From: Eledone cirrhosa
Taxonomy: Eukaryota
DNA: 64,000 bases
Reading direction: 5' to 3'
Assembly (NCBI GenBank): GCA_964016885.1
Contig: OZ024746.1
Location: 91,760,001-91,824,000 of the forward strand
Below the pieces are notes generated by a model. The model was not told the DNA's origin, searched no databases, and saw nothing but the letters and a program-made list of their open reading frames with translations. Numbering within the stretch: the first letter of the stretch is position 1; the number at the start of each line of letters is the position of its first letter. A program made the translations under genes and the position numbers. This document shows, in pieces, positions 3,359-62,843 of this stretch.

Positions 3359-4335
<977 letters not shown>

Positions 4336-4567: not shown

Positions 4568-5390
4568 ATTGGTGTGGGATGCTTAAAGTGTCCATATGCG
4601 GTATGTCGTTTGAGCACTCGATGCTCTTACAGAGCAGAATATAATATCACACAAGAAACGGAGAATCAATCGTGCGACGAATTAAAATTTATTAGACATA
4701 TTACAATCGTTTCTCTGGCGACCAGCTCGAGGCACGATCGATTCAATGATCGAACCTGACTCTGAAATCGCAAGATCCTCAGATACGTCTCGATTTTTCG
4801 AAGCAGAGTTTCCAAATGTCCAGTTAAACTTGCGGCCTTCTCTCGCAAGCTTGTGTCCTGTTGTTGTCTGTCGATGAATGGTCAAGAATTGTACACGTCA
4901 TCGGTATTTCTGACCACTCATGACCGTCATTTTTCTGGTTCCATTCATATGTCACCTGTCAATCAAAGTTGTTTCTTTTAGCAGAGTTACTGCTGTAGGA
5001 GGCAAGAGGCTGTATGTTTGGAACGCTCGCGCCCTGCCGCAGCGTTCCTGGCCTCTAAACGGCCACACCCATCTCCATGTTTCGCGCAGGCGTGATACAT
5101 ATACACACCCGCAACTGTATTATATACGAAAATCACAGTAAATATTAAATGTACAGCGAATACTTAGAAAGAATTTTTTAATGGTGGAAAAACATTTTTA
5201 AAAACAACGTTTCAGAAAAACACACCCTCAAAATACCTTAAAAGCATAAGCATGAAATCGCAAGATCCTCAGAGTCAGGTTCGATCATTGAATCGATCGT
5301 GCCTCGAGCTGGTCGCCAGAGAAACGATTGTAATATGTCTAATAAATTTTAATTCGTCGCACCACTGATTCTCCGTTTCTTATGTGATAT
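4568..5390. mobile_element. Family B fold-back element in (TA)n
   Basis: 4645-4764 is the reverse complement of 5270-5390. The left terminus aattggtgt(g/t)ggatgcttaaag is shared with 6433. Confidence 0.85.
4695..4789 (-). ncRNA. Type I hammerhead motif with long stem II (family B)
   Basis: Minus strand: gacgtat-CTGAGGA-tcttgcgatt...ggtcgccaga-GAAA-cgattg-TA-atatgtc, then taataaa. Confidence 0.8.
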
Positions 5391-11052: not shown

Positions 11053-11154
11053 AATATACCGTATGTTTAATTAAAAACATTTAGAAGACCATATGCTATC
11101 AGTTTTAAAGTAGTGACTTGTCACTTACTTCTTTTCAGCGAAAGAAGGGAGAGA

Positions 11155-11196
11155 AGCTAACAGTCTGTTTCACGCTGGTTGGCGTTCATCAGAGCC
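11155..11196 (-). ncRNA. Type I hammerhead motif (family I)
   Basis: Minus strand: ggct-CTGATGA-acgc-caacca-gcgt-GAAA-cagactg-TT-agct. Next to a TA run at 11199. Confidence 0.8.
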
Positions 11197-18316: not shown

Positions 18317-18951
18317 GATTTTGAGTATATGTTGGTTGTATAACAACACCTCAGTATGCAGGCTGGAGCACTCGACGAAGTGCGCAGGTTGGTTTGGTTA
18401 CTCCGGAGTAATGTAAAATAAAGTTAAATAAAAAGTCAAATGTTTAAAATTTAGCTTCGTTTATTACTGCTATATATATTTCGGTGACAGCCATCTTTGG
18501 CTGTGACCTCTTCAGGCAGTCCGAATTAGTGTGGTATAGACAAGTACATATGTTGTTGAGGTGTATAATTTTGTCAATACTCTGATATGCCCAGTTCCTG
18601 GTTGGGTTGTTATTTCACTGAGGAAATAACAACCCAACCAGTTCCTCACTGAATTAACAACCCAACCAGGAACTGGGCATATCAGAGTATTGACAAAATT
18701 ATACACCTCAACAACATATGTACTTGTCTATACCACACTAATTCAAACTGCCTGAAGAGGTCACAGCCAAAGATGGCTGTCACTGAAATATATATAGCAG
18801 TAATAAACGAAGCTAAATTTTAAAGATTTGACTTTTTATTTAACTTTATTTTACATTACTCTGGAGTAACCAAACCAACCTGCGCACTTCGTCGAGTGCT
18901 CCAGCCTGCATACTGAGGTGTTGGTATACAACCAACATATACTCAAAATCT
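18317..18951. mobile_element. Family C ~635-bp near-perfect palindrome in (TA)n with HHRs at 18466-18520 (-) and 18747-18801 (+)
   Basis: Arms of about 305 bp. HHR: actgc-CTGAAGA-ggtcacagcca-aaga-tggctgtcact-GAAA-tatata-TA-gcagt, then aataaa. Confidence 0.92.
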
Positions 18952-26945: not shown

Positions 26946-27803
26946 ATTTTTTGATTTGTCTAGATTGTTTGTAAATATTACCCCAATGCTGATATTAATT
27001 AGCTTGAGGGTTACAAACTAATTACATATTAAGATTTAAATTTGAGAGCCCCAGATATGGCTCTAATATGGCTGCTGGGAGCTTGAGCTGTCGTGAGCCC
27101 GGCACTACCAATAACATGTGTTATAAAAGTTCCTTGTCAAAAGAAAGCATTAGTGCCAGAATACCTTAAAGTAATGATATGTGTGTAACCGCAGCACAAT
27201 AACGGACAGGTCCTGGAAGTTATGGGCAAACTTAAAGACTAAGACTTCTCTCTGGGAACTTAAGTATTTAATAGGTGCTAATATTACTATAGGGAATAAC
27301 TGTAGCTCTTTATTCCCATATGTTGCTTTCAAAATTATGAGTCAGCTAATTTTTTATATACCATTCCAGATGTGTGTGGATACATTTATTTCACTGGATA
27401 CATTATGAGCTATGACAAATGTTTCAGATCTTATAGAAACTATTCCAGTTATTGTACTGGGAACTAAGGTAGAGACATGTAAAGCTCATCCCAAGATTTA
27501 CTAGAATGATTCTCTGGCATTCCTCATTTATCCCCATCAATAAATATTAAATATAAAAAATAATAACTGTAATTACAGCTGTTGGCAATGATCGTTATGT
27601 CTTTGCTATCGCACCAGAAAAAACATTCTGCCTCAGTGATCATTTAAAAGTAATCAGATTTATAAACCTGATCCCATAGCATGAGAATATGAACAAACAC
27701 TTAATAGCAGTATAACAGCAAACATTAATGTCTACCGCACACATTCATATAATACATACACACATATATATATATATACACACACACATATATATATGTG
27801 TAC

Positions 27804-27853
<50 letters not shown>

Positions 27854-28205
27854 GTTCACATATATATATATATATATATATGTGTACATATATATACACA
27901 CACACACACACACTCACACATATATCATCATCATCATCATTTCATTTTATGTCCACTTTTCCCTGCTTGCAAGGGTGGGACGGGAACTGATTCTGGCTTG
28001 ATTTCTACAGCTGGATGCCCTTCCTAACACCAACCTCATTTACAGTGAGTGCTGGGTGCTTTTTTGCCGTGGCACCTCCACGTCCACTTTGCAGTGGAAT
28101 GATATGGACTGGGGTCCCTATCATCTCATTTCTAATTTCTACAGCTGAGTAAACTGGGGCAATGTGAAATAAAGTGTCTTGATCAAGGAAACAACACATA
28201 TATAT

Positions 28206-28295
<90 letters not shown>

Positions 28296-28297
<2 letters not shown>

Positions 28298-28463
28298 CGA
28301 AGGAGATGTGGTAAGGAACCAGATGGACCATAATGCACCAGAGTACTCAATACTTAGGGTAGTAGAGTGGGTAATAGGAAAATGTATGACCCCGACGGCT
28401 ATTTCTGTCCAGAAATAGCCGTCGAAACGGCTTGAACTCTGCCATCGGGGTCATACTTTTTCC
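28296..28463. mobile_element. Family D fold-back element in (TA)n carrying the 3' half of an HHR
   Basis: tatgacccc-gacggctatttctg-tc-cagaaatagccgtc-GAAA-cggct..tgcca-TC-ggggtcata. Homologous to 49230, 51464 and 62558. Confidence 0.85.
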
Positions 28464-29289
28464 ATATATATATATATATATATATATGCTCACAATTCTA
28501 CATCTACACATATGCATATATATATATATATGTGTGTTATATGCATACATATACACACACATATACAGGCAGACATACATATATACACATGCATACTTAC
28601 ATACACATGCATGCATCCATCCATACATACATACATACATGAATACATATATGGAGTCATAACTTTTAAATATACTGACTCACCCACACAAAACTATATA
28701 TATGAATCAGTTAGTAGTAGTATTAGCAGTATTAGTAGTAGTATTAGTAGTAGTATTAGTAGTAGTATTAGTAGTAGTATTAGCAGTATTAGCAGTATTA
28801 GTATTATTTTGCTGAAAAGACCTTCATCAATCAGATGCTTATTTCCTGTTCAAAATTTCTCTTCACAGTAGTACGGATATTAATAAGGCAGTCGGAAGTA
28901 ATAGAGACCAACTGCATGACAACAACAACAACATAATAATCAGCCATACATATGTATACATACATATGTATACACGCTTTTATATATATATATATGGATG
29001 TATATATATTGATGTATATATATGGATGTATATATATGGATGTATATATATGGATGTATATATATTGATGTATATATATGGATGTATATATATGGATGTA
29101 TATATATGGATGTATATATATGGATGTATATATATGGATGTATATATATGGATGTATATATATGGATGTATATATATGGATGTATATATATGGATGTATA
29201 TATATATATATATATATATCATTGTCATTTTAATGTCTGGTTTCCCTGCAAGCAATATATATATATACAAATGTATGTATACATGCATG

Positions 29290-29330
<41 letters not shown>

Positions 29331-29760
29331 GCAGAGGTTATATTTAATTTGTTGGGATTCAACAAGCTTAAACATTTTTATAACTGATATAAAGCACTCA
29401 ACAGATTATTGGGGTAAATACACAATATATTAATAAATGGAAACTATATTTATAAAACCATATTTATTTTATTATATATATTTCAAGGGCAACCAAGGAA
29501 AATTATGGTGCGCTTTCATCAGATAAAATACAGATTTGTTTTATAAATAAATATTGACATACCCAGAAAAAAGACAACCTTCCTATCCAGGAAGCTCCAA
29601 CCGTTAAGGTTGTCTTTTTTCTGGGTATGTCAATATTTATTTATAAAACAAATCTGTATTTTATCTGATGAAAGCGCACCATAATTTGCCTTGGTTACCC
29701 TTGAAATATATATAATAAAATAAATATCATTTTATAAATATAGTTTCCATTTATTAATAT

Positions 29761-36394: not shown

Positions 36395-36640
36395 GAGACA
36401 CGTGGCCTAGTGGTAAGGGTGTTTGACTTACGATCAACATGTTGTGGGTTCAATTCCTGGGTTGTGACTTCATTTCATGTTGCTCTAGTATAATCAGATA
36501 AAAATAAGTACCAGCAATAGCTGGGGGTTTAACCCTGCGATGGACTGGCCTCCTGTCCAGGGGCGAGTCATGTACTTTCAGTCACTTTACGCCATGAAAG
36601 CACTGTCCAAATGAGACTTCTGGCTTAAGACATACTTTAG
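36395..36640 (+). mobile_element. tRNA-SINE (second family)
   Basis: cacgtggcctagtggtaagggtgtttgac...gggttcaattcct; accctgcgatggactggc. Confidence 0.75.
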
Positions 36641-45712: not shown

Positions 45713-47789
45713 TAATAGTGCAAGGAAGAGTTAGTGTGTTGTATATTTGACTATTTCTGAACCATCGTCTGAAATTAATTCTTTTGTGATATTTTTCTTG
45801 AACTAATTTCAGCCATTAGGATGAGATTATGCTGGAACACCGCTTTGATTAGTCAATCATATCGATTCCAATGTTTAGATTTTAATGTCTGCTACTTATT
45901 TTAGCAATCTCATTTGTTGTCGGACATAAACACAGACTAATAGAATTATCTTAATAATTGAAAAAAAAAAATGTTTCGTTTAAACAAATAGCGATGTCCT
46001 AATGTGTTATTAATGTCAGGTTACACTCCATGTATTAAGACGCGAACATCTTCGGCAAAGACATGACAACCTTCTCGGCATAGCGAAAATTAAACCTTAC
46101 ATACACACACTCGCGAATGTATGTAAACTACTCAACCACACCTGTGTCGGATGTTTGTTTGAAATAGTTAAGTAGAGGATGAAGTTCTAAGTACCAACAG
46201 ACTGTAGTTTAGTGTGTATCTCAAACTTAATATGTTGGGGATAAGATATTAAATAGCTACTTCTTCGACGAGGTCGATACACAACTACCAGTCTAGTATC
46301 GGGATTGGTTCTTCCTCTACATCTTTCTCACCTCCTCTCTTTATCACTCTCTCTTTCCTGCACTGGAAGAAATGTGCTGTATTCAGATCTGGAGAGGAGA
46401 TGGGCTCCACCAAATTAAAAAAAAAAGCCATAAAAACGTTGTATGTCAATATGGCGCCCATACGACTCCACACGGAGTTACGGGACCTTACCACACATAA
46501 TCAAATGAAATGATCCTCACAGCTTTTTTTTTCAGATTGACTTGACTTGCTGAAATAAGCCATCTCACATCATCTAGAATAAAGGTACATGGCTTAATTG
46601 TTAAAGTGTTTGGTTGGCCATCATGAATTTGGTTGACAGCGACATATTATCTCCTTGAGGAAGACATTTTATTTCACGTTACTCCAATCCACTCATCTGC
46701 ACAGTCGTACCAGTAATTCGAAGGGCCAGCCTTGTCACGTTGAATCTCCCTGATAATTACGTCAATGATACACGTGTCTGTGAAATGCTCAGCCACTTAA
46801 TTTCACGAGCAAACTATTTCGTTGTTCAAACAACTGGAACTCTCCTCTTTTTGGTATTGACGTACACACACATACGTACATACACATGTACATACACACA
46901 CACACACACACATACGCGTACACACACACACACACGTACACACACACACGTATATACACACACACGTACATACACACACATACACACGTACATACACATG
47001 TACATACACACACACACGTACATACATAGGTACACACACACGTACACACACACATACATACACACGTATACACACACACGTATACACACACGTACATATA
47101 CATGCACACACACACGTACACACGTACATGCACACGTACATGCACACGTACATACACACGTACACACACACGCGTACACACATACACGTACACACACGTA
47201 CATTCACACGTATACACACACGTACATACACACACGTACATACACATGTATACACGTACATACACACGTACACGCACACACGTACATACACACGTACACG
47301 CACAAGTATACACACACGTACACGCACAAGTATACACACACGTACATATACATGTATACACACACATACACACACACGTACATACACACGTATACACACA
47401 CACTCGTACACAGACACACACGTATGCATACACGCACATACACAGACACACACATACGTACATACACACACGTATACACACACACGTACACAGACACACG
47501 CACACATGTAGTGACACACATACGTACACACACATACTCGTATACACAGACACATAAACACACACGTACACACACACACACACACACACACATAAAATAT
47601 TGCTTCAAGAACTATATTTCGATTGTCGGAGAAAAAGAAAAAAAGGATAAAGCAAGGAGAAGGGGAGGGACAGTGACTACACCTATGTGTGGGTGAGACC
47701 AGCTCAGTGTGGGTGAGACCAGCCCAGTGTGGGTGAGACTAGCTAAGTGTGGGTGAAACCAGCCCAGTGTGTGTGAGACCAGCCATTTT

Positions 47790-49229: not shown

Positions 49230-49231
<2 letters not shown>

Positions 49232-49380
49232 CAAAGGAATTGTGGTAAGGAACCAGACGTACTCAATACTTAGGGTAGTAGAGTGGGAAATAGAAAAAAG
49301 TATGATCCCGACGACAGAGCTCAAGCCGTTTCGACGGCTATTTCCAGCTTGAGCTCTGCCGTTGGGGTCATACTTTTTCC
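49230..49380. mobile_element. Family D fold-back element in (TA)n
   Basis: aaaaagtatgatcccgacgacagagctcaagc / gcttgagctctgccgttggggtcatacttttt. Confidence 0.85.
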
Positions 49381-49499
49381 TATATATATATATATATATA
49401 TATGAATATTCGTAACATTTGAGTATTCTCAGCGAGAAAGGTAGCCGTTACCAGCTGTAGACTACTTGAATAGTAAACTTTTGGGAGTTATAGAGAGAT

Positions 49500-49674: not shown

Positions 49675-50227
49675 CTACCCTATTTTTCCATTTTTCAATA
49701 TACTACTGATTTTGATATCAGTATAGATTACTGGGCCAAATCAAGTTATGTTAGAATCTTTTAAAACATCTTTAAAAATACTCGTACGAATTAAATACAA
49801 AAAAGTTTGAGTCCAAAACAAAAGCAAGCTATTTCACATTATATATTTTTGAAAAATAGACGTGAATGTTCTCAAAGATTTGATCTGAGTCGAAAAAGCT
49901 TCTTTTTTTAAATTCTATATTTCACTGTTAGCTGTTGTAATATTTTGAGTGGATAGACAATTCTACAATTCAAACTGTAAAGTCAAAATACAAAAGATGC
50001 ATAATATGAAGAATTTCCTACCTTTCTTTTGAATCACAAACTCAAGGGAAAAATAGTACCTTGCAAAATAAAGTGCCTCGATCACAAACTTAGTTGCAAC
50101 GAATGAATTGAGATGCTTAGTGTGTAACTATGTGTGTATATATATATACACACACAAGTTTGTTTGTGTGTGTGTGTGTTAGTGCGCGCGCGTGCATGTA
50201 TGTATGTGTGTATCTATCTATCTATAT

Positions 50228-50290
<63 letters not shown>

Positions 50291-50337
50291 CACACATACA
50301 TACATGCACGCGCGCGCACTAACACACACAAACAAAC

Positions 50338-50375
<38 letters not shown>

Positions 50376-50471
50376 CTTGTTTTTGGTACAGAAAGAATTT
50401 TGTCTCCAGTTTTTATTGCCGGGTCAGAGGCCACTATTCTTTTCAACAACGTCAAATAACAACGCCTTATA

Positions 50472-50615
<144 letters not shown>

Positions 50616-50672
50616 ACGAGTGAGAGACAGAGAGAGTAAGAAATGTGTATGTGCGTGTGTGTTTGGTACACG

Positions 50673-51463: not shown

Positions 51464-51465
<2 letters not shown>

Positions 51466-51627
51466 CGAAGGAAATGTGGTAAGCAACCAGGTGGACCATA
51501 ACGCACCAAAGTACTCAATACTTAGGGTAGTAGAGTGGGTAATAGGAACGAGTAGGACCCCGACGGCTGAGCTCAAGCCGTTTCGACGGCTAATTCTGGA
51601 CTCAGTCCAGAATTAGCCGTCGAAACG
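51464..51627 (-). mobile_element. Family D terminus abutting the 3' side of the Penelope-like element
   Basis: Palindrome gtttcgacggctaattctggactcagtccagaattagccgtcgaaac, with (TA)n on the left. Confidence 0.85.
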
Positions 51628-56713: not shown

Positions 56714-57258
56714 TTGAGTTTATGTTGGTTGTATACCAACACCTCAGTATGCAGGCTGGAGCACTCGACGAAGTGCGCAGGTTGGTTTGGTTACTCCGGA
56801 GTATTGTAAAATAAAGTTAAATAAAAGTCAAATGATTAACATTTAGCTTCGTTTATTACTGCTATATATATTTCAGTGACAGCCATCTTTGGCTGTGACC
56901 TCTTCAGGCAGTTTGAATTAGTATGGTATAGACAAGTACATATGTTGTTTAGGTGTATAATATTGTCAATACTCTGATATGCCCAGTTCCTTGTTTGGTT
57001 GTTAATTCACTGAGGAACTGGAGTCATATGACTCCAGTCATATGACTCCAGTTCCTCAGTGAATTAACAACCAAACAAGGAACTGGGCATATCAGAGTAT
57101 TGACAATATTATACACCTAAACAACATATGTACTTGTCTATACCATACTAATTCAAACTGCCTGAAGAGGTCACAGCCAAAGATGGCTGTCACTGAAATA
57201 TATATAGCAGTAATAAACGAAGCTAAATTTTAATCATTTGACTTTTATTTAACTTTAT
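56714..57258. mobile_element. Family C fold-back element in (TA)n with HHRs at 56858-56912 (-) and 57157-57211 (+)
   Basis: Highly similar to 18317-18951. Right arm shorter. Axis contains agtcatatgactcc twice. Confidence 0.92.
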
Positions 57259-57464
57259 ATATATATATATACATAAAATGAGATTAATATTTCCACAGGT
57301 ACTAAGTACCTACGGAAATATATAGGGTGTCTATAATACATTTGTTGTTCAATGGTATTCATTTGAGATACCAGAACTATAAAATTGAGATGAGCGGAAC
57401 AAGCAAACATTAAACAATTTTTTAAATAAATTAAAATACAATTTAAATATCACCTGTCCAAAAT

Positions 57465-57543
57465 GCTATTACCGACGGTTTCGCTTCACAAAAGATTGGA
57501 AATCCAAAGGACTTCCAATGGAAAGATCAGCTCTTCAGATAGC
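57465..57543 (-). ncRNA. Type I hammerhead motif (family L)
   Basis: Minus strand: gctat-CTGAAGA-gc...ttggaagtcc-ttt-ggatttccaa...gc-GAAA-ccgtcgg-TA-atagc. Confidence 0.8.
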
Positions 57544-62520: not shown

Positions 62521-62557
<37 letters not shown>

Positions 62558-62757
62558 GGAACAAGTAAGACCCCGACGGTTGAGCTCAAGCCGTTTCGAC
62601 GGCTAATTCTGTACTAATTCAGTACAGAATTAGCCGTCGAAAGGGCTTGAGCTCAGCCGTCGGGGTCTTACTTGTTCCTATTACCTACTCTACTACCCTA
62701 AGTATTGAGTACTTTGGTGCGTTATGGTCCACCTGGCTCCTTACCACATTTCCTTCG

Positions 62758-62759
<2 letters not shown>
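62558..62759. mobile_element. Family D fold-back element in (TA)n
   Basis: Arms 62558-62614 and 62622-62678. Right arm: cagaattagccgtc-GAAA-gggct-tgagctc-agccg-TC-ggggtc. Confidence 0.9.

Positions 62760-62843
<84 letters not shown>

What the first reader, a model, noticed from the sequence alone, without database searches (positions are those of the whole stretch)
62558..62759. Family D: four copies all fold back at or beside hammerhead stem II and lack the CUGANGA half
Seen at 28296, 49230, 51464 and 62558: stem II 3' strand, GAAA, stem III (cggct-tgagctc-agccg, loop containing the palindrome gagctc), GUC, then ggggtc. The axis lies in the hairpin gacggctaattctg...cagaattagccgtc, with different loops in each copy, which implies independent events (49230 is internally deleted). 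Inference: the parental stem II hairpin primes second-strand synthesis, giving catalytically dead palindromes. Prediction: a parent reading gacccc-CTGANGA-cggcta... exists elsewhere in the genome.
Basis: partly seen in the sequence, partly recalled or inferred. Interest (0 to 1): 0.72.

Follow-up and report, generated by a model that had tools for sequence, protein, structure and literature searches.

The report
Half-hammerhead palindromic Penelope-type mini-retroelement
This 200-base mirror-image repeat is one copy of a short, protein-less jumping element that occurs many thousands of times in TA repeats of this animal genome; it keeps only the back half of a hammerhead ribozyme, so it likely cannot cut itself, and it is likely rebuilt as a head-to-head pair by a Penelope-like retrotransposon enzyme at each insertion, a known insertion shape.

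Summary
All four window copies exist, and each carries stem II 3' strand-GAAA-stem III-GUC-GGGGTC without any CUGANGA.

They are members of a very large family. In the 3.0-Gb genome, 13,857 long-form and 5,491 shorter-form copies match exact anchors. Nearly all lie in (TA)n. Each is built as an 80-85-nt tail, an arm, a variable junction and an inverted arm.

The centre behaves like a junction made anew in each copy. I saw 42 different centres among 54 parsed. Arm ends are trimmed independently, fillers include A18-A21 runs, and some copies mix subfamilies or join other elements.

The predicted CUGANGA-bearing parent was not found: one spurious hit, and 44 hits of which none looks like a parent.

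The 23-nt GAAAC-stem III-GUC block is missing from the tail-side arm 92 times and from the other arm 92 times. So the short form at 28296 is a recurrent slip, not an ancestral hammerhead minus its core.

This architecture matches published Penelope-like element (PLE) insertions: (TA)n target, head-to-head arms, one-sided tail. Two findings tie the family to PLEs: GIY-YIG PLEs that also end in (TA)n are abundant here, and one copy is fused head-to-head to a PLE 3' UTR.

Earlier notes of this scan described the same kind of repeat on other DNA. Verdict: ordinary in kind, useful as a natural record of PLE integration.

The parts
62534..62556 (.). (TA)n tract flanking the tail-less arm (likely target microsatellite)
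   Evidence: Read directly. In one search, 30 of 30 related loci show TA runs on both sides.
62557..62615 (+). Inverted, tail-less arm. It is the reverse complement of the sense arm; its minus strand carries a second GAAAC-stem III-GUC-GGGGTC.
   Evidence: match at 62569-62603 minus, 1 mismatch. Pairs with 62621-62679 in a long hairpin, -127.6 kcal/mol, z -17.9.
62616..62620 (.). Centre (junction) of the palindrome, ctgtact-aattc-agtacag. This is the hypervariable part of the family.
   Evidence: About 14 centre variants in 30 near-identical copies. 42 different centres among 54 parsed of 61 unselected copies.
62621..62679 (+). Sense arm. Stem II 3' strand 62621-62638; GAAA 62639-62642 (next base G, family consensus C); stem III hairpin with GAGCTC loop 62642-62660; C17 at 62661; stem I 3' strand GGGGTCTTACTTGTTCCT 62662-62679. 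No CUGANGA.
   Evidence: 62633-62667 plus, 1 mismatch. No Rfam hammerhead listed.
62680..62759 (+). One-sided tail ATTACC...CCTTCGTT. This is the likely 3' end of the unit and abuts (TA)n.
   Evidence: Tail on one side only in about 97% of long-form copies.
62760..62841 (.). (TA)n tract flanking the tail
28296..28463 (-). Second copy; sense strand is minus. Tail 28296-28375; tail-side arm 28376-28407, lacking the 23-nt block; centre tc; tail-less arm 28410-28463 with GAAAC-stem III-AUC.
   Evidence: The 23-nt loss is recurrent and symmetric genome-wide: 92 versus 92.
49230..49383 (-). Third copy. The tail has an internal deletion, the tail-side arm is full, and the tail-less arm is cut from the centre into stem III.
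51464..51627 (-). Fourth copy. Tail, full tail-side arm and centre ctggactcagtccag are present. The tail-less arm ends after GAAAC and is joined to non-TA DNA at a gaaa microhomology.
   Evidence: matches consensus positions 1-169.

Best explanation
Family D is a non-coding repeat with at least 19,000 exact-anchor copies that lies in (TA)n tracts as two inverted 55-60-nt arms plus an 80-85-nt tail on one side only. It is likely a non-autonomous retroelement mobilised by Penelope-like (GIY-YIG) retrotransposons, and its palindrome is likely re-made at each insertion from two separately synthesised DNA copies of one short RNA.

Shown:
- fixed outer ends;
- (TA)n flanks;
- arms of one copy match each other far better than arms of different copies;
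- the centre is a junction with independent trimming of both arms, fillers and occasional foreign partners;
- the family has GAAAC-stem III(GAGCUC loop)-GUC but no CUGANGA anywhere.

Inferred:
- The unit RNA is about 145 nt and reads 5'-AUUUAGUCCAG...GAAAC-stem III-GUC-GGGGUC...UUCC-UAUUACCC...CCUUCGUU-3'.
- One (TA)n DNA end would prime reverse transcription at the RNA's 3' end, giving tail plus arm.
- The other end would prime at the internal UAUUA just after stem I, giving the arm only.
- Both cDNAs run to the RNA's 5' end, sometimes gaining untemplated A runs.
- Their 3' ends are then joined head to head by microhomology or end joining.
- Use of one RNA molecule for both primers would explain why the arms match and why one tail is the rule.

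The hammerhead half is most likely a relic of a PLE-type ribozyme, or a retained recognition or dimerisation site. It is predicted to be catalytically dead on its own.
For: Copy number and ends:
- Full 202-nt hits at 95-100% identity with the same boundaries (39 of 40 scored places cover 1-201 or more).
- 30 of 30 loci are TA-flanked.
- Exact-anchor counts are 13,857 for the long form and 5,491 for the 70-99 class, with controls 0.

Asymmetry:
- Tail-less palindromes number about 200 loci (475 strand hits, control 38).
- Double-tail forms number 176 loci, against 13,857 one-tail forms.

Junction nature of the centre:
- 42 different centres among 54 parsed of 61 unselected copies.
- The same junctions recur in different subfamilies: CAGTCCAGA x4, CTGGACAGA x4.
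- Fillers A18, A21+TATATA, T18 and A8 sit next to complete arm ends.

Matched arms: 46 of 61 copies have at most 2 mismatches over the outer 44 nt. Arms of different copies differ by about 11.

Independent arms:
- Many copies have a complete tail-less arm joined to a truncated tail-side arm, and many show the reverse.
- Loss of the 23-nt block from the tail-side arm occurs 92 times, and from the tail-less arm 92 times. One locus in both lists, with hits 20 bp apart, appears to have lost both.
- Subfamily chimeras: L142, L143, L154, and several double-tail loci.

Orientation and PLE link:
- In L074 the unit's centre end is fused to a 5'-truncated, folded-back 3' UTR of an intact-ORF PLE family (96% over 311 nt to L192). 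Both outer ends lie in (TA)n.
- In 4 loci the unit is fused in the same way to the 5' end of a hammerhead-bearing repeat, E2.
- GIY-YIG gave 10,596 first-look candidates, and all 150 scored were over the cut-off.
- Several PLE families end in (TA)n.

Literature (passages read):
- PLEs show an inverted 5'-truncated copy at the 5' end, a one-sided tail and a (TA)n bias (PMC8557442).
- Palindromes at inverted junctions and a tail on one of the inverted pLTRs (PMC3846280).
- PLE hammerheads have short helix III with palindromic loops (PMC4209133).
Against: - No autonomous element sharing sequence with D was found. BLAST of D against 30 + 10 PLE loci gave only neighbouring D copies.
- The PLE link rests on architecture, target, abundance and one fused locus.
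- No RNA data: no RNA holder was listed. The unit RNA, its 5' end and the two priming sites are therefore inferred.
- The unit alone shows no unusual RNA stability (z +1.1).
- Some one-arm variants are shared by several copies: CAACCGTC in L001, L002, L005, L030; GCCCTTTC in L001, L009. In the youngest subfamily, centre types are also shared by 5-7 of 30 copies. Both fit whole-unit inheritance better than rebuilding.
- The 92/92 symmetry and the central diversity could also arise after insertion, by slippage and palindrome-centre repair.
- The roughly 97% one-tail rule is not predicted by random twin priming. It needs the extra assumption of one RNA with two priming sites.
Confidence: 0.58

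Rival explanations
1. Whole-unit copying plus later decay. The whole 200-nt hairpin unit is transcribed and copied as one piece. Centres, 23-nt losses and arm truncations then arise after insertion, because long perfect palindromes are unstable (centre breaks, replication slippage).
For: - Shared one-arm variants and shared centre types in the youngest subfamily.
- Equal 92/92 loss of the hairpin-forming 23-nt block flanked by GCCGTC repeats, as expected for symmetric slippage.
- Two duplicated loci keep their already asymmetric junction: C1:5866288/5866578, and C1:282298992/282300849.
- Very strong hairpin.
Against: - In a subfamily whose arms are almost identical (17+2 copies), nearly every centre differs. 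The centre would have to change at least 100 times faster than bases do.
- The same junctions recur in different subfamilies.
- A18-A21 runs, (TA)n and foreign sequence sit at centres.
- Head-to-head fusions occur with a PLE 3' UTR, with E2 and with other subfamilies.
- About ten perfect spacer-less palindromes with different arm lengths persist.
Confidence: 0.2
2. A parent element has a complete type-I hammerhead. Its stem II hairpin, or a snap-back of the cDNA, primes second-strand synthesis, so each copy is a fold-back of one arm onto itself.
For: - Arms within a copy match.
- Some centres are perfect palindromes at truncated positions: ctgcag, ctgtacag, ttcgaa.
- A fold-back of 60 nt is seen in the PLE part of L074.
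- Self-priming was proposed for Penelope (PMC3846280).
Against: - No parent was found with two targeted genome-wide patterns.
- The tail-less arm is often longer than the tail-side arm.
- Loss of the 23-nt block in the tail-side arm alone is as common as in the other arm alone (92 versus 92), and loss in both appears once. A copy cannot hold what its template lacks.
- Subfamily chimeras exist.
Confidence: 0.1
3. A DNA-level foldback or MITE-type transposon with TA target preference, unrelated to reverse transcription.
For: Long inverted repeat and TA-rich targets.
Against: - The termini are not inverted repeats of each other, because the tail is on one side only in about 97% of copies.
- Half units are cut at the centre and joined to arbitrary DNA.
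- A-run fillers are present.
- Fusions with PLE and hammerhead repeats lie in the orientation expected for 5' ends.
Confidence: 0.03

Closest known systems
EN+ Penelope-like element insertions: inverted pLTR pair with one-sided 'tail' (Arkhipova et al. 2013, PMC3846280; Craig et al. 2021, PMC8557442; passages read)
   Same: Insertion into (TA)n. A head-to-head inverted copy with a variable, often palindromic junction. An extension present at only one outer end. Frequent 5' truncation. A ribozyme-type motif in the repeated arm.
   Different: No ORF and no direct pLTR. Arms are only 55-60 nt. The tail is 80-85 nt, against the 30-40 bp reported. The hammerhead is reduced to its 3' half. No sequence is shared with the 40 PLE loci I examined. 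The intact (TA)n-adjacent PLE ORFs I sampled carry a CX4CX2C linker, and the two with the N-terminal part carry DKG. By the motifs named in PMC8557442 this is Neptune-like, not Hydra-like, so the partner clade stays open.
Metazoan non-LTR retrozymes / PLE-derived hammerhead repeats (PMC7229834 abstract; bioRxiv 10.64898/2026.07.22.740005 abstract)
   Same: Short non-coding elements thought to depend on PLEs and derived from pLTR-like sequence with type-I hammerhead parts.
   Different: Retrozymes are tandem repeats with complete hammerheads and circular RNAs. D is dispersed, palindromic and lacks the catalytic CUGANGA box.
Type-I PLE hammerheads with short helix III and palindromic loop (Cervera and De la Pena 2014, PMC4209133; passages read)
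   Same: GAAA, an A15.1-U16.1 closing pair, a GUC site and a helix III loop holding a palindrome (GAGCUC).
   Different: The CUGANGA strand is absent. Helices I and II exist only because of the inverted arm.
L1 twin priming (5' inversions)
   Same: Both DNA ends of one target are proposed to prime reverse transcription, and the products are joined with microhomology.
   Different: Recalled from memory; I saw only a search listing. L1 inversions are not palindromes of the same segment, and the priming sites differ.

Membership tests
Hammerhead ribozyme (type I) | Conserved CUGANGA strand between helices I and II | tested here: not met
   Absent from all four window copies. No hammerhead family is listed by Rfam at gathering score or at E<=10 on two copies. 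Genome-wide patterns found no family member with it in place.
Hammerhead ribozyme (type I) | GAAA strand, A15.1-U16.1 pair, cleavage triplet GUH, helix III hairpin | tested here: met
   GAAAC-GGCTTGAGCTCAGCC-GTC is read in the arms. It is conserved in divergent subfamilies whose stem II sequence differs. The information content is low, so descent from a hammerhead is likely, not proven.
Hammerhead ribozyme (type I) | Self-cleavage | not testable with these tools
   Needs in vitro transcription and a cleavage assay.
EN+ Penelope-like element insertion architecture | Microsatellite, (TA)n, target | tested here: met
   30 of 30 loci. At least 57 of 61 unselected copies have TA-rich DNA at the tail end, and their other end was TA by selection.
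EN+ Penelope-like element insertion architecture | Inverted 5'-truncated copy joined head to head, with a variable junction | tested here: met
   Orientation is inferred from fusions with a PLE 3' UTR and with E2.
EN+ Penelope-like element insertion architecture | Extension (tail) at one outer end only | tested here: met
   13,857 one-tail, about 200 no-tail and 176 two-tail loci.
EN+ Penelope-like element insertion architecture | RT plus GIY-YIG ORF, or sequence shared with an autonomous PLE (for a non-autonomous member) | tested here: not met
   There is no ORF in 200 nt. There is no D-like sequence in the 3' regions of 40 PLE loci beyond neighbouring D copies. Only a small sample of more than 10,000 GIY-YIG candidates was examined.
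Metazoan retrozyme | Tandem repeats with a complete self-cleaving hammerhead | tested here: not met
   Copies are dispersed single units and the hammerhead is incomplete.
MITE / foldback DNA transposon | Terminal inverted repeats at both ends of the unit | tested here: not met
   One end is the tail (AACGAAGG...), the other is the arm (...CTTGTTCC); they are not inverted repeats of each other.
SINE (pol III) | Internal A/B boxes or a tRNA/5S/7SL-derived head | tested here: inconclusive
   No tRNA, 5S or 7SL family is listed by Rfam over the copies. Only weak box-like matches by eye. No transcription data.

The most novel reading that the evidence does not exclude
The family is a natural record, about 20,000 junctions deep, of how Penelope-like enzymes integrate. 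One short RNA is primed twice by the two (TA)n ends of a single break, at its 3' end and at an internal UAUUA. The two cDNAs are then joined head to head. This would explain at once the inverted pLTRs and the one-sided 'tail' that have puzzled the PLE field. The retained GAAAC-stem III(GAGCUC)-GUC block would then serve as an RT recognition or RNA-pairing site rather than as a ribozyme.
Probability: 0.3. Interest if true: 0.7.

Novelty: new member of a known kind. Interest (0 to 1): 0.45.

Why it matters
How Penelope-like elements integrate, and why they leave inverted repeats and a one-sided tail, is still unsolved. The papers read here call for an in vitro system.

A 200-nt family with tens of thousands of young copies gives countable statistics on each step: arm ends, fillers, skipped hairpins and chimeras. 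It also gives a very small substrate for such an assay.

The family shows as well that a ribozyme half can persist at very high copy number without its catalytic strand. That bears on whether hammerheads are needed for PLE-type propagation.

For annotation, these copies would be mistaken for microRNA-like hairpins: Rfam lists microRNA families at low E-values over the arms.

Tried and rejected
- Rfam scans of the window (gathering and E<=10) and of two copies listed only microsatellite or hairpin look-alikes of microRNA families, all below their gathering scores. I treat these as chance.
- RNA evidence: no RNA holder was listed. Read laying was not used, because only DNA-type contig runs of one study were offered.
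- Parent search: two targeted patterns gave nothing parent-like.
- Other hammerhead families in the window and loci, found with my own scanner, share no sequence with D that I could see on reading their flanks.
- My scanner found no canonical hammerhead in 30 PLE loci.
- I first read the short form (28296 type) as an older, ancestral three-way junction inherited as a unit. The 92/92 counts and its presence in many subfamilies reject that reading.
- I considered poly(A) tails at the centre, meaning the opposite sense. I rejected this because partners of known sense (PLE ORF/3' UTR, E2 hammerhead) face D's centre with their 5' sides and have their 3' ends at the outer (TA)n.
- Helitron and Tc1/mariner-MITE readings were rejected on the termini.
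- The 'Hydra clade' label from earlier scan notes was not confirmed. The (TA)n-adjacent PLE ORFs I sampled have a CX4CX2C linker and none has CxCX5C; the two that include the N-terminal part also have DKG.
One over-long genome pattern was shortened.

Full report
**What is at the coordinates.** The element spans 62557-62759. On the + strand it reads as follows.
- An arm, AGGAACAAGTAAGACCCC-GACGGTTGAGCTCAAGCCGTTTC-GACGGCTAATTCTGTACT.
- A short centre.
- The mirror arm, AGTACAGAATTAGCCGTC-GAAAG-GGCTTGAGCTCAGCC-GTC-GGGGTCTTACTTGTTCCT.
- An 80-nt tail, ATTACC...CCTTCGTT.

(TA)n lies on both sides. The copies at 28296, 49230 and 51464 are in the opposite orientation. Probes of the arm and of the tail match 5 and 4 times in the window, against none in 100 shuffles. 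No copy holds CTGANGA. Rfam gives no hammerhead match at gathering score and lists none at E<=10 on two copies. The 150 rows shown of the window-wide E<=10 scan hold none either.
- 28296 lacks the mirror of GAAAC-stem III-GUC in one arm.
- 51464 is cut off in its second arm.
- 49230 is internally deleted.

**It is a very large family with fixed outer ends.** The window lies in a 3.0-Gb genome.
- The 202-nt copy finds full-length matches at 95-100% identity; 40 of 3,814 first-look candidates were scored.
- In 30 of 30 loci shown, the unit has the same two boundaries and TA runs on both sides.
- The 28296 form finds 3,644 candidates at 89-100% identity.
- Exact-anchor patterns running from the end of the tail to the far (TA)n count 13,857 copies with a 100-130-nt palindrome and 5,491 with 70-99 nt. 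Reversed-pattern controls are 0.

**The predicted parent was not found.**
- CTGANGA followed within 6 nt by the stem II 5' strand occurs once in the genome, in a rearranged fragment.
- CTGANGA 8-38 nt before CCGTCGAAACGGCT occurs 44 times (control 0).
- In the 30 loci inspected with flanks, these hits fall into three kinds: fillers inside the centre, point-mutated arms, or half units joined to other DNA. None reads gacccc-CUGANGA-stem II.
- The other 14 hits were seen only as matched strings and look the same.
- These are exact-match tests, so a diverged parent cannot be excluded.

**The centre is a junction, not an inherited loop.** I fetched the first 60 listed places; these hold 61 copies, unselected for subfamily.
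- Among the 54 whose centre I could parse there are 42 different centres.
- A subfamily whose arms are almost identical (AACCAGTAAG type, 17+2 copies) has nearly as many centres as copies.
- Complete arms end in CTGGACT(AAA).
- Most copies have one or both arms trimmed by 1-10 nt, independently.
- The same junctions recur in different subfamilies (CAGTCCAGA x4, CTGGACAGA x4, CTGGACTAGA x3).
- Fillers include A18, A21+TATATA, T18 and A8, each next to a complete arm end. Longer foreign pieces also occur.
- In the 70-99-nt class the break points range over the whole arm. Many copies have a complete tail-less arm joined to a tail-side arm cut after 20-30 nt, and many show the reverse. Microhomology junctions recur, such as GGCT/GGCT and TTCGAA.

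**The arms match each other, but neither is simply a copy of the other.**
- In 46 of 61 copies the outer 44 nt of the two arms differ at 0-2 positions. Arms of different copies differ at about 11 (ungapped, so indels inflate some values).
- At least ten subfamily-specific variants in 'stem I', and others in 'stem II', are mirrored. This covariation is therefore no evidence for an RNA structure under selection.
- Chimeras exist: L142, L143, L154, and several two-tail loci whose halves belong to different subfamilies.
- In one subfamily, the 23-nt block GAAAC-stem III-GUC, flanked by GCCGTC repeats, is missing from the tail-side arm 92 times and from the tail-less arm 92 times.
- One locus appears in both lists, with hits 20 bp apart, and so seems to lack the block in both arms.
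- The 28296-type 'hammerhead minus CUGANGA' three-way junction is therefore a recurrent slip found in many subfamilies. It is not an ancestral form.
- A fold-back in which one arm templates the other cannot give equal single-arm losses.

**One tail is the rule.** Palindromes with no tail number about 200 loci (475 strand hits, control 38). Those with a tail on both sides number 176 loci. One-tail forms number 13,857. Random, independent priming at two sites would give at most half one-tail forms, so the asymmetry is built into the process.

**Sense and the link to Penelope-like elements.** My own scanner finds complete type-I hammerheads of other repeat families in the window. In E2 and the 'tattttat' family they have (UA)n-like palindromic helix III. 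Both families sit as head-to-head inverted pairs with variable junctions.
- In four loci the 5' end of the hammerhead repeat E2 faces D's centre.
- In L074, a 5'-truncated and folded-back 3' UTR of an intact-ORF PLE family faces D's centre. It is 96% identical over 311 nt to L192, whose ORF has YLDD, a CX4CX2C linker and GIY-YIG. The PLE's 3' end and D's tail each abut (TA)n.
- So D's tail end is likely the 3' end of its RNA and the centre is its 5' end.
- On that sense strand the tail-side arm reads GAAAC-stem III-GUC.
- GIY-YIG matches are very numerous: 10,596 candidates, and all 150 scored are over the Pfam cut-off.
- Several PLE families end at (TA)n.
- No PLE locus examined (30 + 10) shares sequence with D beyond neighbouring D copies.
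- The partner is therefore unknown. The sampled ORFs look Neptune-like rather than Hydra-like by the motifs named in PMC8557442.

**Comparison with print.**
- Craig et al. 2021 (PMC8557442; passages and section 11 read) describe PLE insertions with high 5' truncation, an inverted 5'-truncated copy at the 5' end, a 30-40-bp tail at one end, and (TA)n targets for Naiad and Hydra.
- Arkhipova et al. 2013 (PMC3846280; passages read) describe inverted pLTRs with palindromes at the junction and a tail on one of the inverted pLTRs. They discuss self-priming.
- Cervera and De la Pena 2014 (PMC4209133; passages read) describe PLE hammerheads with short helix III and palindromic loops.

D fits this architecture in miniature. 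It differs in having no ORF, no direct repeat, a longer tail and only half a hammerhead. My literature searches turned up no description of this family; that is a limited search, not proof of absence. Earlier notes of this scan report the same kind of repeat on other DNA of this genome. I treated them as leads only.

**Mechanism.**

Shown:
- the anatomy;
- the counts;
- the junction-like centre;
- the independent arm ends;
- the symmetric 23-nt loss;
- the chimeras.

Inferred:
- A unit RNA of about 145 nt is primed twice by the two (TA)n ends of one break, at its 3' end and at the UAUUA just after stem I.
- Both cDNAs run to the RNA's 5' end and are joined head to head.
- Use of one RNA molecule would explain the matched arms and the single tail.

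Points against this reading:
- there are no RNA data;
- the unit alone has no special fold (z +1.1), whereas the full unit is a hairpin of -127.6 kcal/mol;
- a few one-arm variants and centre types are shared among copies, which fits whole-unit inheritance;
- post-insertion palindrome instability could produce part of the central diversity and the 92/92 symmetry.

**Verdict.**
It is partly wrong: there is no parent, and no priming by a parental stem II.
- The thing is an ordinary kind of repeat, a PLE-type inverted stump with a tail. Its copy number is unusually high, which makes it a good natural data set for the unsolved PLE integration mechanism.

Noticed in passing
window 18330-18900 and 56760-57260: Two long head-to-head inverted pairs of a repeat ('E2'). 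Each arm carries a complete type-I hammerhead, actgc-CTGAAGA-ggtcacagcc..ggctgtcac-GAAA-tatatat-A-gcagt, whose helix III is a (UA)n-like palindrome. The arms extend symmetrically at least 280 nt and the central junctions differ between the two loci. Rfam did not report these at gathering score.
   Followed up: partly
window about 255-318, 4023-4299, 29460-29740: Another hammerhead family, tattttat-CTGATGA-...-GAAA-tatgtat-A-ataaaata. At 4023-4299 and 29460-29740 it also forms head-to-head inverted pairs, next to TA runs.
   Followed up: partly
window about 11153-11192, 57465-57538, 4694-4782 (minus strand): Three further single hammerhead-like motifs, found only by my simple scanner. Helix III is not TA-type (for example GAAACagactgtT). 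They were not checked further and some may be chance.
   Followed up: no
L074 (G000:C3:248801233-248804276), reverse strand about 1150-1720: A composite insertion in one (TA)n tract. It holds the inverted 3' end of a PLE (195 nt), a 60-nt fold-back of the same PLE segment, then a family-D unit (arm plus tail) in sense. This is the one fused locus that links D to PLE RNA.
   Followed up: yes
L093, L103, L108, L112, L116; L186, L187, L190, L193, L194; L188, L189, L192; L185, L117: At least four PLE families with a C-terminal GIY-YIG and a CX4CX2C linker, several with long open frames (up to 1,096 aa). Their 3' UTRs end at TA or CA/TA microsatellites, and TTCCTA-like words lie near the 3' ends. 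D also has TTCCTA at the arm/tail boundary. The shared word was not tested against chance.
   Followed up: partly
L101 (G000:C28:42774666-42777905): A GIY-YIG match lies directly after a TA run at the start of an open frame, as expected for an N-terminal-EN (Naiad-like) remnant. Not examined further.
   Followed up: no
window 36396-36469: A tRNA-like match just below Rfam's gathering score (28.4 versus 29 bits).
   Followed up: no
window-wide, e.g. 50166-50629, 27740-29340, 46850-47540: Long TA, CA, GATA and CT microsatellites give many spurious low-E-value matches to microRNA families in Rfam. This is an annotation hazard in this genome.
   Followed up: no
L118 61-152 (G000:C3:128282157-128285426): A minimal family-D copy. 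The palindrome is reduced to aggaac-ca-gttcct in front of a full tail, so the inner ends of the arms can lie almost at the outer boundary.
   Followed up: yes
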